From contig NC_043000.1 of the NCBI RefSeq assembly GCF_006345805.1, positions 162,688,001 through 162,752,000 of the forward strand: 64,000 nt of DNA, in the 5' to 3' direction. The notes under the pieces were generated by a model, which was given only the letters and a program-made list of their open reading frames with translations, searched no databases and had not been told where the DNA came from. Within the stretch, counting starts at the first letter, position 1; each line of letters opens with the position of its first letter. This stretch comes from Octopus sinensis. Lineage: Eukaryota. Positions 6,272-51,419 of this stretch are shown in pieces. The position numbers and the translations under genes are program-made.

Positions 6272-6515
6272 AGATATATATATATATATATATATATATA
6301 TATATATAACAATGATAAATATCAAAGTGAGTTATATACAGTAGCGGTAACACATCGTGACGTATTTTTGCCATTTCAATATGGCTAACCCCTAAGGGTG
6401 GATGCTACTGTAGTTTTTAGCCCCAGGAGGACACACTCCTCCAGCTGGCCATAGACACACTTTCTGTGTCCTGTCAGTATTTGCAAATGGAAGTCATCCT
6501 TCCCGTCTTCAACTT

Positions 6516-6574
6516 ATGATACACACGGACTCGAGTTTCGAGGTATTGACCTCTCGTCAGCGTGTGACAATCAT
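6516..6574 (-). ncRNA. Type I hammerhead ribozyme (minus-strand copy)
   Basis: Reverse complement of the 6862-6920 motif. Confidence 0.85.
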
Positions 6575-6861
6575 AGTTGTCGGCGAGAATTAGATTTCCT
6601 TCACAAATACTTATACTTTTTCCAGCGTCCACTGTCGCTGATATTGAAAAAGTGAAATCAAACAATGATAAATATCAAAGTGAGTTATATACAGTAGCGG
6701 TAACACATCGTGACGTATTTTTGCCATTTCAATATGGCTAACCCCTATCAACTCACTTAGATATTTATCATTGTTTGATTTCACTTTTTCAATATCAGCG
6801 ACAGTGGACGCTGGAAAAAGTATAAGTATTTGTGAAGGAAATCTAATTCTCGCCGACAACT

Positions 6862-6920
6862 ATGATTGTCACACGCTGACGAGAGGTCAATACCTCGAAA
6901 CTCGAGTCCGTGTGTATCAT
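6862..6920 (+). ncRNA. Type I hammerhead ribozyme
   Basis: Stem I CACACG/CGTGTG (extended by ATGAT/ATCAT); core CTGACGA; stem II GAGGT-CAAT-ACCTC; GAAA; minimal stem III AC-TCGA-GT; GUC cleavage triplet at 6906-6908. Confidence 0.88.
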
Positions 6921-7610
6921 AAGTTGAAGACGGGAAGGATGACTTCCCTTTGCAAATACTGACAGGACACAGAAAGTGTGTCTATGGCCAGCTGGAGGAG
7001 TGTGTCCTCCTGGGGCTAAAAACTACAGTAGCATCCACCCTTAGGGGTTAGCCATATTGAAATGGCAAAAATACGTCACTATAATATATATATATATATA
7101 TATATATATATATATTCTATTTTTTAACTGTCCAATGAAAGGGAACATGAAACTTTGAGTAACAGGTTTTGTGATATTTTTTAACGCATATTACTCTACC
7201 TTCGGTATTCGAATACTATTTTTCCACTTTTTTTCGCATTTAGGTGCTTACTCTGTATGTATATATGTATATATATATATATATATATATATATATATCC
7301 TTTTTTGCCACGAACGTACCTGTGGCCACACAAGTGTTTTTTCCTAGATATTTTTTTAACAAAAACTAAGGGATACTCCACTTGTACTGGTTATACAGCA
7401 CGCCAGATACTATCCTTGCGGTATTGCTAGACAAAAATTGAGCCTTTAATAGGTTCATCCGATCTGTCCTTTCTACAGTCATGGTAAGTTTCTAGCAATC
7501 CACCTCATAAGACAAGCTTTTAAGGGAGCCGGTTTAGTCGCCGAAAGTTCAGTGATGAAACATTGTTCTAAGCTAAATGTTACCAATAGCACTCTTGGTC
7601 GACTTGTCAC

Positions 7611-46916: not shown

Positions 46917-47169
46917 TATTGGCGTCGGTTAAAGTAGCAGTTTCTTGACGAAGCGGTATGTATTATGTGAAATAGAAAGATGAATAATCTTGTAGTGGAT
47001 TAATCAAAAGTTTAACCGATACCTTAGTAGCAAAAATCACAGCAGTGAACAGCACGGTTGGAGGTACAACCATCTGGCGTTGCAACCGTGCGTTGGTGCG
47101 GATAATTGAAATTAAAACATTATTGGTGAATTGAAGAAATGGAGCTGAACGCAGATTGAACAGAAATCG

Positions 47170-47266
47170 TTTTATTTCATTCTACACGTGTTTCGAAAGG
47201 CACAAATTACCAAAATCCGATTGAATAATGGGACCATATTGTGTCTTTCTCTTCAGGAAGAAAAAA
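47170..47266 (-). ncRNA. Hammerhead ribozyme in PLE pseudo-LTR (copy 2)
   Basis: Matches copy 1, 3632 bp away. Confidence 0.75.
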
Positions 47267-48423
47267 GGAAATCCGTTGGAAAAACAAAAACAGAACAGAG
47301 GCAGAGCAAAAAACAAATCGAACTGTGCTCCTAAGAGCCCATGGCGAAACTGTTTATCAGTGTATGTTGAGAACCGGTGGCTGAAGAATTCAACAGGTCA
47401 GGCATCGGTCAAACATGGGGTGAGGGTGTATAGATGTTCTTTGTGACCGAGAATAAAGTTCTGACTATTTAAAGAATATTGGATGTTTTATAAGGGGCGA
47501 GAAAAAATCTACTTAGAGACGTGTGTGTGTGTATACTGTTCTATATATGTGTGTGTTGGCGTAGGGGTAGAAAACATTTTTTGTGTACGTGTGTGCGTTT
47601 GATCGTTCGGCTGTCAGTGGCTACTGCCGTGATAACCGTTGGGTGGCAGAAAGAAAAAAAATAAAGAAATTATATATATATATTTTATGTTTTATGTGTG
47701 TGTGTGTGTGTTCATCTAAGCCTACCTTGACAAGGAAACCCCCCGCTGTGAAAAAACAAGCCCCGTTTGTCTTACAGGAGTAATTTCCCTTGCAGTGGTT
47801 AATTGTAGATATCTTAAAATCTATTTCAGAATTTGTTACCAAGGGATATGGGTGCCGGTCTTATTTATAAACGCTATTTAAAGGCCAGATAAGTGTAACG
47901 CCGCCAATGGGGGCATCGAAAAGCCGACTGTAAGAGCCCGTTTACCATCCGGCCTCTGGGGTTTCCTTGTCAGGTAGGCTTAGATGAACACACACACACA
48001 CACATAAAACATAAAATATATAATTAATTTCTTTATTTTTTTCTTTCTGCCACCAACGGTTATCACGGCAGTAGCCACTGACAGCCGAACGATCAAACGC
48101 ACACACGTACACAAAAAATGTTTCTACCCTACGCCAACACACACATATATAGAACAGTATACACACACACACGTCTCTAGTAGATTTTTCTCGCCCCTTA
48201 TAAAACATCCAATATTCTTTAAATAGTCAGAACTTTATTCTCGGTCACAAAGAACATCTATACACCCTCACCCACATGTTTGACCGATGCCTGACCTGTT
48301 GAATTCTTCAGCCACCGGTTCTCAACATACACTGATAACAGTTTCGCCATGGGCTCTTAGGAGCACAGTTCGATTTGTTTTTGCTCTGCCTCTGTTCTGT
48401 TTTTGTTTTTCCAACGGATTTCC

Positions 48424-48519
48424 TTTTTTCTTCCTGAAGAGAAAGACACAATATGGTCCCATTATTCAATCGGATTTTGTAATTTGTGCCTTTCGAAACA
48501 CGTGTAGAATGAAATAAAA
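48424..48519 (+). ncRNA. Hammerhead ribozyme in inverted PLE pseudo-LTR (copy 3)
   Basis: Stem I TTC/GAA (extendable); CTGAAGA at 48434-48440; long stem II GAAAGACACAA...TTGTGCCTTTC; GAAA; stem III AC-ACGT-GT; GUA triplet at 48504-48506. Confidence 0.78.
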
Positions 48520-51419
48520 CGATTTCTGTTCAATCTGCGTTCAGCTCCATTTCTTCAATTCACCAATAATGTTTTATATATATATATAGATACACTCACA
48601 CATGCACACATATGCCTATAGGCAGACGTATTGCCCGTCTGTTTTATCAAAACACCACCATGAAATAATGTGCTTATTTTAGCAAAGAATATACACTAAT
48701 TGACTAAGAAATTAGGACCTCTCTTTTTTCCTAAAAGACGAATTACAATAAACATTTGTTGACCACTTGTTTAATCCAAGCCCTCAGAATAAACAATATT
48801 CTTAGTTTGCTCTAAGGCGCTATAAAGAATAGGCCAATAAGGTTTTCAACGAATGACTCAAGATGATGTTGCTAATGTGAAAATATATACATTTTACGAG
48901 GTTGTAGAGTCAGCTTTCAATAAATGTCCTTCTGATGTTTTGTGATCGTAATAATTTTAATTTGAATGAAAAATCAAGCTTTTAAATTCGAGATGGCAAA
49001 TCAACCGAATTCATTTCTATGCTGGAAATGAAACAATTGTTTCCAGGAAATTTTAGACATTATTATGGGATCCTGGATAAGGGGTATCATATTCTTGATC
49101 TCTTTGTTGAATCATACATACATACGTTCATACATACACACATACATACATACATACATACATACATACATACATACATACATACATACATACATACATA
49201 CATACATACATACATACATACATACATACATACATACATACATACGTACGTACGTATGTACATACATATGTAGCAAGTCATGAGAGGCGGCAATATGACG
49301 TAATGGTCGGTTGCCTGAACAAGCATAATTGTTGATAATCCCATTGGTTAAAATTGCTGCCCATATACGATTTCTAAACATTCGTCAAAGAAATGCTTCA
49401 CGAAATACGGTTCTTAGAATTCAGATATGAGCAGTTATAAAAACCCTGATTTTTGGGAAATTACTCAGTGCTCGTAGGATGGTTACTAAACTCCACGTCA
49501 CTCACTCATTGAGATATTTGCTATTTTTTATGCCATGTCTATGATAAAAATCCAACAAGAATTATTTGAATTGTTATGAACTCTAGTAGTTACTACGAAA
49601 GATATGCTAATGTGAATTTTAAGTCGTAATTCTCTACGACAAAATGACTTTACTTTCCGATTGTACTATAAATGGTAAATGTACATAAATAAAATAATGT
49701 AGCAATTATTTTCTCTTTCTTCACGTTATTCAACTTGTTAATGAAATTTATTTCTGCAATTATGAAACCATATTTTATAGCGGTTAAAAGAATACGAATT
49801 TGTTTATCTTCAACAAACATGCACGCATACAATGCCCGTTAGCGTTTCACAGTATATATTTCTCGCTATGGCGTTTATGTAGCTGGAGTCAGGATCTACG
49901 TATAAACGTATAATGCTAACACTTATAAATAAATTATGAGTGACGTGTTTATCAATAGATATTCCTACTTCAAAAGTAAAATATATTTATTATCTAATTC
50001 CAAATAGGAAACATATAAAAGTAGTGTTACACAAACAGTAACAAAACGCGGCTATAAAAAGTGGTAACCGGCTATACATACATACACACATGCATACATA
50101 CATATATACACACATACATACATACATACATACATACATACATACATACATACATACATACATACATACATACACACATGCATACATACATACATACATA
50201 CAAACATACGTACTTACATGTATGCATACGTGCATACATAAATATATACATACTGATAGTTGTATGCTTAAGAAGCATGCTTTGCAACCACGTGGGTTTA
50301 GGTTCAGTCCCACTATACAGCAGAAGTAGCACATTGGGCAAGTGTCTTTTACTAAAAGTACCCGGTCGACCAATGCCTTGTGAGTGGACTTACCCGTCTT
50401 TATATGCCTACACCCATACACACACACATACACGCACATGCATGCACACAGACACATACATACACACTCAAACACACACAAACACACACACAAACACGCA
50501 CACATATACACACAAGCACTCACACACACACAAGCTCGCGTAAGCACATACCTATAAGCCAACATGAAGAAGATTTAAGTACTATTTTCTGGCAAGATGA
50601 GATACCAATCTGCTATGTGCTCCCATACAGACATAAATGATGCAGTGATTTGAAGGTTAGTTGTCAGGTATTAGTGTATGGACTACCTAATATGCGCAGG
50701 TTTTCTCATGGCTTCATATATATATATACCTTGCTGTGATTGTACAGTGTGATATGAGGTAAATTTAGCAGCCACTTTTAACACGTAAAAGCTTCCGTGC
50801 TGGACCATCCAAATATAGATGCATACAGTAAACTAAAGCGTGCAATTAGAGGATGCTAAGAGTACAGATTTTAACAGATTGAGCTTCCTCAACATATTTC
50901 TTCCTTGTTAGTCCATACATATATTTATACAGGAAACAGCAGGGTGAGAATGCAAAATTATTTGACGTGTATTGATATGAGATCTTTTCGTTGAATTATA
51001 TTGTAATAGCGTGGTCTAATTTGAGGCAGATTTGGTTGTTATTTCTATGAGGTCAAACTTACGATGTTAAAGTACCCTCGTTTTATATCCCTCCCTTTTA
51101 ACGTATATAAACCTTTGTTAGTACATGATTGCATCGAAGCATTGTAGAGGTTGTTAGTTGAATACGATGATGAGGAAAGAGAAAATATATTGCGTTGAAT
51201 TATTTTATCAGAGGTCGAATATACCGAAGCTCAAGAAATCGTAACCCAGTGATTGGTTGAAAAAAGAAAAAAAAACTGCCGTAAGGTGTAGGGATAAAAA
51301 TGCTATACAAACACTGCTATTACTTCTCTCTTACTCCATCTCTATCACTCTTTACGTGTGTATATTTCATTCGCTATATATCTATATTTCACTACTTCAC
51401 AAGATACACATATTCTTTT

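What the first reader, a model, noticed from the sequence alone, without database searches (positions are those of the whole stretch)
6308..48575. Candidate autonomous/non-autonomous pair: the small ribozyme element and the Naiad PLE share one insertion architecture
Seen: both loci consist of a partial tandem repeat on one strand plus a shorter inverted arm pointing outward. Both are bounded on each side by (TA)n, both have nearly identical arms, and both carry hammerheads with a 6-nt palindromic stem III (CTCGAG vs CACGTG). I see no primary sequence similarity between them. Inference: the Naiad RT/GIY-YIG machinery, or a relative, mobilises an unrelated ribozyme RNA in trans into (TA)n targets, recognising structure or cleavage ends rather than sequence.
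Basis: inference. Interest (0 to 1): 0.75.

Follow-up and report, generated by a model that had tools for sequence, protein, structure and literature searches.

The report
Retrozyme with a Penelope insertion footprint
A small non-coding repeat carrying a predicted self-cutting RNA has the same insertion layout as a Penelope-like retrotransposon 36 kb away, so it is likely copied by Penelope-type enzymes, as already proposed for this class of repeats, but nothing here singles out this neighbour (Hydra-like, not a Naiad) as the one that copies it.

Summary
The shared layout is real. Both loci have a partial tandem, a head-to-head inverted arm, (TA)n on both sides and type I hammerheads, and they show no sequence similarity. 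But this is the published footprint of Penelope-like elements (PLEs) in general, so it identifies the machinery, not a partner.

The big element is not a Naiad. Its GIY-YIG nuclease is C-terminal, it has RWL/DKT motifs and a full hammerhead motif, so it is Hydra-like; its ORF has about ten frame switches.

The 353-nt element is a high-copy family. In contigs of three whole-genome runs its ends recur at two places about 46-49 nt apart (6357; 6308-6311 joined to TA). That is the PLE 'tail' signature and the useful new evidence.

Its ends lie 171 and 217-220 nt downstream of the ribozyme cut, so recognition of cleavage ends is unlikely. Its tail (49 nt) and 3' fold differ from the big element's (about 150 nt). 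Retrozyme mobilisation by PLEs is already proposed in print. Verdict: a new member of a known kind, partner unidentified.

The parts
6274..6307 (.). (TA)17 left flank of the small element (likely target)
6308..6747 (-). Small element, main copy: 353-nt non-coding unit plus 87-nt repeat (1.25 units); 42% GC
6308..6356 (-). One-sided 3' tail (46-49 nt) present on the main copy only; family ends recur at 6308-6311 and 6357
6522..6566 (-). Type I hammerhead motif; predicted cut between 6528 and 6527; stem III A-CTCGAG-T
6748..6749 (.). Head-to-head inversion junction, 2 bases matching neither template exactly
6750..7079 (+). Small element, inverted arm (= 6357-6686 reversed; 2 differences)
6870..6914 (+). 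Type I hammerhead motif in the arm; predicted cut after 6908
7080..7115 (.). TA-rich right flank of the small element
43247..43331 (.). (TA)n left flank of the PLE
43332..44324 (-). 3' pLTR of the Hydra-like PLE; includes ~150-nt tail (43332-43482) and hammerhead (core at 43624, cut after 43551)
44242..46916 (-). RT followed by C-terminal GIY-YIG ORF, about ten frame switches; RIRWL, SDKT, YRDD, VYQ..YIG, CNLC, CPH; ~140-codon Ser-rich stretch in the linker, CxCX5C not intact
46964..47959 (-). 5' pLTR (partial tandem; unit length 3632); hammerhead core at 47256, cut after 47183
47960..48574 (+). PLE inverted arm (= 47114-47740 reversed, 14 one-base indels, no substitution); hammerhead core at 48434, cut after 48506; GG microhomology at the junction
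48575..48588 (.). (TA)7 right flank of the PLE

Best explanation
The 353-nt element is a hammerhead-bearing non-coding repeat (retrozyme type) that was likely inserted by the reverse transcriptase-endonuclease of some (TA)n-targeting Penelope-like element, and the large locus is a frameshifted Hydra-like Penelope-like element that shows the same general footprint without being shown to be the partner. SHOWN: layout, hammerhead motifs, two recurrent 3' ends 46-49 nt apart, TA-rich flanks, and read-through of the cut site. INFERRED (from PMC11167929, a different PLE clade): the protein nicks both strands of an AT-rich target and starts cDNA internally on the RNA at one of two fixed sites. One strand is primed at the tail end (6308-6311) and the other at the inner site (6357, which falls in the loop of a predicted 7-bp hairpin). 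The two 5'-truncated cDNAs meet head to head. The template would be uncut tandem RNA or a circle, because the main copy runs 220 nt past the cut site. The driver is more likely another PLE family, possibly the one whose terminal region gave rise to the repeat.
For: Layout matches Craig et al. word for word (partial tandem, adjacent inverted 5'-truncated copy, 30-40-bp tail on one end, (TA)n bias) and Pen2a_Av. Family data (4 of 24 listed runs laid): 4110, 3152 and 1936 contigs laid in three whole-genome runs of three organism labels. Loose ends lie exactly at 6357, the arm's end, in 23, 33 and 20 contigs with AT-rich letters of low agreement (0.45-0.56). A 3-base omission at 6308, which joins the TA run to 6311, occurs in 7, 8 and 4 contigs (summed depth 20,587 of 92,867; 7,524 of 51,878; 1,473 of 12,032). 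Both arms share a minority family allele (G at 6583, where C holds 162,556 of 173,138 in X1), so they come from one template lineage and one event. The circular monomer folds at z = -6.3, 63% paired. It has no stop-free frame over 66 aa and only background hits (<=20 bits) to 151 related proteins. Against this element as partner: no sequence likeness, different 3' folds (z -3.8 vs -1.8), tails of 49 vs ~150 nt, inner ends 171 vs 68-70 nt from the cut.
Against: Only 24 of 430 loose-end rows were shown. In X4 and X5 the 6357 loose letters share a motif that may be a diverged subfamily's tail rather than a flank. Only 2 of 7 joints listed were strand switches, so family-wide inversions are barely sampled. 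Contig depth is not copy number. No whole genome was held, so flanks, ages and TSDs could not be counted. (TA)n also abuts non-PLE repeats in this window. The in vitro mechanism comes from a Poseidon element, not Hydra. Two features do link the pair weakly: long ends 217-220 vs 219-222 nt from the cut, and a perfect 8-nt stem III palindrome found in none of 26 published Hydra rows.
Confidence: 0.72

Rival explanations
1. True pair: this Hydra-like family is the driver and picks the unrelated RNA by a hammerhead-anchored geometry, starting cDNA about 220 nt downstream of the ribozyme cut.
For: Cut-to-long-end distance is 217-220 nt (small) vs 219-222 nt (PLE). None of 24 published Hydra consensi falls between 154 and 354 nt. 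Both have a perfect AC-N4-GT stem III. Both copies are young (pLTRs differ by 2 substitutions in ~1 kb; small arms by 2 in 330). Almost all Hydra families target (TA)n.
Against: Inner ends (171 vs 68-70) and tails (49 vs ~150) disagree. With four end pairings and published distances spread over 30-355 nt, one match within 3 nt is roughly a 1-in-10 event (my estimate). The PLE end comes from one copy. Folds differ. Hammerhead mutants did not change insertion size in PAc. Palindromic loop 3 is generic. Arkhipova 2013 saw no cross-mobilisation between PLE types in Adineta.
Confidence: 0.12
2. The small locus is just the 5'-truncated end (pLTR stump) of another, autonomous PLE, not an independent retrozyme family.
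For: Li et al. found 24 of 57 Xenopus retrozyme families homologous to known TEs, 21 of the 22 being PLEs. PLE stumps give the same footprint. Summed depth falls toward the 5' side.
Against: The sequence returns to its own 3' end after 353 nt (exact 87-nt repeat), so the template had a 353-nt period. No coding trace. Contigs cross the unit junction (records 31 and 32).
Confidence: 0.07
3. A non-PLE LINE mobilises the unit, or the inverted arm arose at the DNA level (foldback repair, satellite turnover) in a TA-rich, unstable spot.
For: TA runs abut many repeat types in the window. A separate ~110-nt inverted duplication (5406-5514 / 6163-6271) lies right beside the locus. Cervera and de la Pena left LINEs open as drivers.
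Against: The arm stops exactly at the family's recurrent end (6357), which DNA foldback would not predict. Two fixed ends with a tail are described as unique to PLEs. There is no A-tail or Pol III box.
Confidence: 0.06
4. One or both inverted arms are long-read assembly artefacts.
For: The PLE arm has 13 one-base deletions and 1 insertion, 11 of 14 in base runs, and no substitution. The ORF is broken by frame switches, with no stop codon seen in the aligned segments. None of the 7 joints listed lies at this locus's own junction (6747).
Against: Both loci have unique DNA beyond TA runs on both sides. The arms are offset from the junction rather than mirrored at it. The small arm ends at the family terminus seen in independent short-read contigs.
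Confidence: 0.03

Closest known systems
Metazoan non-LTR retrozymes (Cervera and de la Pena 2020, PMC7229834; Li et al. 2026 preprint 10.64898/2026.07.22.740005)
   Same: Unit of 353 nt (mussel units are ~350-390), GC under 50%, type I hammerhead, non-coding, predicted highly self-paired circle, high copy, co-occurring with PLEs; PLE mobilisation proposed in both papers.
   Different: This locus has 1.25 units plus an inverted arm rather than a multimer. The preprint's main text does not use tail, inversion or mollusc evidence ('tail' 0, 'mollus' 0, 'inverted' 1 in a reference). No homologous PLE terminus was found here.
Hydra clade PLEs (Craig et al. 2021, PMC8557442), including Hydra-1_Obim
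   Same: RT then C-terminal GIY-YIG, R-W motif, DKT, CxxC and CxH around E and N, hammerhead near the 3' end, (TA)n; collinear by eye with Hydra-1_Obim and Hydra-1_Ajap; Penelope-13_HM is also recorded with an inverted 5'-truncated copy.
   Different: A different family from Hydra-1_Obim (different hammerhead); unit 3.6 kb rather than under 3 kb; CxCX5C linker not intact, with a ~140-codon Ser-rich stretch; long stem II; about ten frame switches.
Naiad clade PLEs (PMC8557442)
   Same: Partial tandem, inverted copy, tail, (TA)n bias; unit length within 3.4-4.4 kb.
   Different: Naiads have an N-terminal nuclease, DKA, and no canonical hammerhead; the paper calls cephalopod Naiads long-inactive remnants.
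Poseidon PAc in vitro system (Frangieh et al. 2024, PMC11167929)
   Same: Two adjacent internal start sites give the tail; both target strands are cut and extended; AT-rich target; start in a stem-loop.
   Different: Different clade; cis element lies in the ORF start; no non-autonomous template was tested in the parts read.
Non-autonomous Chlamys elements such as MRC1 (PMC8557442) and trans-mobilised inserts in Adineta (PMC3846280)
   Same: Non-coding or foreign sequence carrying pLTR/inverted footprints made in trans.
   Different: Those generally share 3' or pLTR sequence with the driver; here no shared sequence was found with the one PLE at hand.

Membership tests
Naiad | N-terminal GIY-YIG endonuclease | tested here: not met
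   Nuclease motifs lie after the RT; 0 of 18 long relatives matched an N-terminal YIG pattern
Naiad | DKG motif modified to DKA | tested here: not met
   SDKT at 46433-46771
Naiad | No canonical hammerhead | tested here: not met
   Three full type I motifs with stems I-III, stem II unusually long
Naiad | CxC domain and insertion-in-fingers | not tested
   No Naiad sequences could be aligned; the ORF is collinear with ~710-aa relatives
Hydra | C-terminal GIY-YIG endonuclease | tested here: met
   VYQ..YIG at 44384-44677 matches P0008 residues 581-657, E 3e-11
Hydra | RWK motif near the N-terminus and DKT | tested here: met
   RIRWL (K replaced by L) and SDKT; DK[T/S] in 15 of 18 and an RW motif in 7 of 18 long relatives
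Hydra | CCHH absent; CxxC and CxH flanking E and N | tested here: met
   No insert between the two nuclease motif halves; CNLC..E..N..CPH
Hydra | CxCX5C linker | tested here: not met
   Only a degenerate GCRS in a frameshifted Ser-rich stretch; matched in 10 of 18 long relatives. Hence filed as Hydra-like, not as a formal member
Hydra | Hammerhead near the 3' end and (TA)n insertion | tested here: met
Hydra | Generally under 3 kb | tested here: not met
   Unit 3632 nt, with ~0.9 kb downstream of the ORF
Hydra | RT phylogeny within the Hydra clade | not testable with these tools
   Published Hydra proteins were read in the supplement and compared by eye only
Non-LTR retrozyme | Type I hammerhead in a 150-450-nt unit, GC under 50%, no ORF, no LTR | tested here: met
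Non-LTR retrozyme | Tandem of two or more hammerhead-bearing units | tested here: inconclusive
   This locus has 1.25 units (not 'active' by the Li et al. rule); contigs cross the unit junction but are too short to show multimers
Non-LTR retrozyme | Highly self-paired circle | tested here: met
   Predicted only: -116.9 kcal/mol, z -6.3 against 100 shuffles
Non-LTR retrozyme | Self-cleavage and expression as circular RNA | not testable with these tools
   Needs bench work or raw RNA reads; only contigs were available
PLE-type insertion | Partial tandem, inverted 5'-truncated copy, one-sided tail from two fixed 3' ends | tested here: met
   Both loci; two recurrent ends for the small family in three runs

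The most novel reading that the evidence does not exclude
This Hydra-like family is the actual driver of a sequence-unrelated, very abundant retrozyme, and its protein sets the cDNA start a fixed ~220 nt downstream of the hammerhead, so that the ribozyme fold serves as the recognition landmark. It would be the first named PLE-retrozyme pair without shared sequence and would give hammerheads in PLEs a role other than cleavage.
Probability: 0.1. Interest if true: 0.7.

Novelty: new member of a known kind. Interest (0 to 1): 0.33.

Why it matters
Who mobilises animal retrozymes has rested on co-occurrence and, in frogs, on terminal homology. An insertion footprint is a third, more direct line of evidence. 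This family shows the PLE tail with two recurrent ends plus an inverted arm, and I found no such description for a retrozyme in the papers read. It also gives two predicted cDNA start sites on a 353-nt RNA, a compact substrate for the existing PLE in vitro assay. It does not establish a specific pair, and the shared architecture itself would not surprise a PLE specialist.

Tried and rejected
Whole genome: none held, so no genome-wide counts of flanks or ages were possible.

Rfam found no hammerhead at the gathering threshold (only U6); the motifs come from a pattern scan. Pfam gave nothing significant for 8 ORF fragments. A search for longer relatives gave 1 hit among 63 candidates (46% identity); no near-identical intact protein was found, which is weak evidence.

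The small hammerhead had 0 matches in metagenome contigs. The Hydra-like scan gave one 1.4-kb locus without flanks.

No RNA holder was listed. One run guessed to be RNA holds near-identical contigs at depth 84-104, but it is not on record as RNA, so it is not used as evidence of expression. Depth along the unit falls toward the 5' side near the cut site in three runs; this could be truncation or subfamily divergence, so it is not relied on.

Palindromic stem III was rejected as a pairing marker because it is generic. (TA)n alone was rejected as a marker. Recognition of cleavage ends was rejected (distances). The 220-nt match is kept only as a lead.

Look-ups of earlier scan notes by sequence and by place were empty. 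The last part failed, so the frame-switch count is read. The host organism was not determined. The supplements of the two retrozyme papers were not seen (bioRxiv closed; PMC7229834 not opened), nor the O. vulgaris supplement (listed only); they may hold this family or inverted copies.
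Full report
WHAT IS THERE. Self-comparison of the window confirms both structures. The small locus reads (TA)17, then a main copy at 6308-6747 made of a 353-nt unit and an identical 87-nt repeat, two junction bases, an inverted arm at 6750-7079, and a TA-rich flank. The large locus reads (TA)n, a 3' pLTR at 43332-44324, an ORF on the minus strand, a 5' pLTR at 46964-47959, an inverted arm at 47960-48574, and (TA)7. Hammerhead motifs give the sense: minus strand in the main copies, plus strand in the arms (5 of 6 hits lie in the two elements, the sixth is a weak match at 30210). 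So in both loci the two outer ends are 3' ends, and the arm stops short of the main copy's end, by 49 nt in the small element and about 150 nt in the large one. Four boundaries beside TA runs is far beyond chance (0.004 each), but TA runs also abut a mariner remnant and SINE-like repeats here. The two elements share no sequence beyond shuffled controls.

THE LARGE ELEMENT IS NOT A NAIAD. Craig et al. (PMC8557442; passages, section 11 and supplement parts read) define Naiads by an N-terminal nuclease, DKA and no canonical hammerhead. They define Hydra by a C-terminal nuclease, RWK, DKT, a CxCX5C linker, CxxC/CxH, a hammerhead and (TA)n insertion. The window's fragments read RIRWL, SDKT, YRDD, then VYQ..YIG, CNLC and CPH. 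They align collinearly with P0001 and with 713-806-aa relatives. Of 18 relatives of 590 aa or more, 15 matched DK[T/S], 12 a downstream Y-x-G, 10 the linker and none an N-terminal YIG pattern. By eye the protein follows Hydra-1_Obim, but the hammerhead differs, so it is another family. The linker motif is not intact and sits in a ~140-codon Ser-rich stretch, and the unit is 3632 nt, so I call it Hydra-like rather than a formal member. The ORF needs about ten frame switches (read) although the pLTRs differ by only 2 substitutions. The arm differs by 14 one-base indels, 11 of them in base runs, and no substitution. Long-read error is the simplest reading; a dead copy moved in trans is the alternative. 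Autonomy is not shown.

THE LAYOUT IS THE GENERAL PLE FOOTPRINT. Craig et al. describe the partial tandem, adjacent inverted copy and one-sided 30-40-bp tail as typical of PLEs, and list (TA)n for almost all Hydra families and many Naiads. Arkhipova et al. [quoted passage not shown] These features therefore cannot pair two particular elements. One point cuts the other way: a perfect 8-nt stem III palindrome occurs in none of the 26 published Hydra rows (read by eye), yet both window elements have it.

THE SMALL ELEMENT AS A FAMILY. Twenty of 24 listed runs, from 12 studies and ten organism labels, hold at least 76% of its sampled words. I laid 4 of them on 6296-6747. In the three large runs, 4110, 3152 and 1936 contigs aligned. 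Loose ends fall exactly at 6357, where this locus's arm ends, in 23, 33 and 20 contigs, with AT-rich letters of low agreement (0.56, 0.45, 0.50), as different flanks would give. The other loose ends shown mostly continue as element-like sequence. A 3-base omission at 6308, which joins the TA run to 6311, appears in 7, 8 and 4 contigs at high summed depth. So the family has two recurrent 3' ends 46-49 nt apart, the outer one joined to (TA)n. Limits: 406 loose-end rows were not shown; in two runs the 6357 letters may be a subfamily tail; only 2 of 7 joints were strand switches; depth is not copy number. Both arms carry the same minority allele at 6583, so they derive from one template lineage. 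The unit is 42% GC, non-coding and predicted to fold as a compact circle (z -6.3). This fits the non-LTR retrozymes of PMC7229834 (part 2, section 14 and passages read).

HOW IT LIKELY WORKS. Frangieh et al. (PMC11167929, parts 1-2 of 4 read) showed for an anole Poseidon element that the protein cuts and extends both strands of AT-rich DNA. It starts cDNA at two adjacent internal sites, which makes the tail, and hammerhead mutants still insert. Applied here by inference: one target strand is primed at the tail end, the other at the inner end, and the two truncated cDNAs meet head to head. The small element's inner end falls in the loop of a predicted 7-bp hairpin. The main copy passes through the cut site and continues 220 nt, so the template was uncut tandem RNA or a circle. 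The ends lie 171 and 217-220 nt from the cut, so cleavage ends are not what is recognised. Fold-back of the first cDNA is an alternative way to make the arm, but it does not explain why the arm stops at the family's inner end.

IS THIS PLE THE PARTNER? Not shown. Inner ends (171 vs 68-70 nt from the cut), tails (49 vs ~150 nt) and 3' folds differ. The long ends match (217-220 vs 219-222). Among 24 of 26 published Hydra rows (two dropped: a 5'-end motif and a reverse-strand duplicate) distances run 30-153 nt with one at 355, so 220 is not a clade constant. I estimate the match as about a 1-in-10 coincidence and keep it as the novel lead. If the host is an octopus, which I did not test, O. vulgaris has 31 recently active PLE families (PMC13282606, passages), so there are many candidates.

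WHAT IS KNOWN AND WHAT IS NEW. PLEs as retrozyme drivers were proposed in 2020 and argued from co-occurrence and pLTR homology in a 2026 preprint (parts 1-3 of 5 read). A curation guide repeats the idea (PMC8969392, passages). Searches found no paper on this family. In the papers I read, none describes tail-plus-inversion evidence for a retrozyme; unseen supplements and subscription papers may. Earlier scan notes on other genomes report similar PLE-footprint mini-elements; I did not check them. The gain is modest: a new retrozyme family with footprint evidence and testable start sites.

VERDICT. Observation real apart from the Naiad label. PLE-type mobilisation likely (0.72). Specific pair unlikely on present evidence (0.12). 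New member of a known kind; interest 0.33.

Noticed in passing
window 5547-6165: Internally deleted mariner-like remnant (transposase fragment at 5672-6025; family name recalled from its motif) with a TA run on its left, lying between two ~110-nt inverted copies of a LINE-like fragment (5406-5514 / 6163-6271, 87% alike) directly beside the small element.
   Followed up: partly
window 44600-45040: About 140 codons of Ser-rich, low-complexity sequence between RT and nuclease where P0001 has about 26 residues; recalls the Asn-rich linker inserts of Adineta Penelopes (PMC3846280).
   Followed up: partly
window 57597-60103: LINE with a 682-aa open endonuclease-RT frame (minus strand), with (AGAT)n arrays near both sides (57124-57275, 60067-60094); possibly another microsatellite-targeting element.
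   Followed up: no
window 34498-34603: Full-length U6 snRNA (Rfam 111.5 bits); the 214 nt just downstream match 62842-63050 at 80%.
   Followed up: no
window 37190-37600, 51400-51790, 61740-62240: Two SINE-like repeats repeatedly found back to back around a (TA)n/(CA)n spacer; one truncated copy (51680-51768) has TA runs on both sides.
   Followed up: partly
window 6482-6551: Loose ends show diverged subfamilies of the small element with a CTGATGA core and non-palindromic stem III variants (6531 T>C in about 2% of summed depth in X1).
   Followed up: no
window 2341-2418: ARAGORN calls a tRNA-Ser(gga); may be a SINE head.
   Followed up: no
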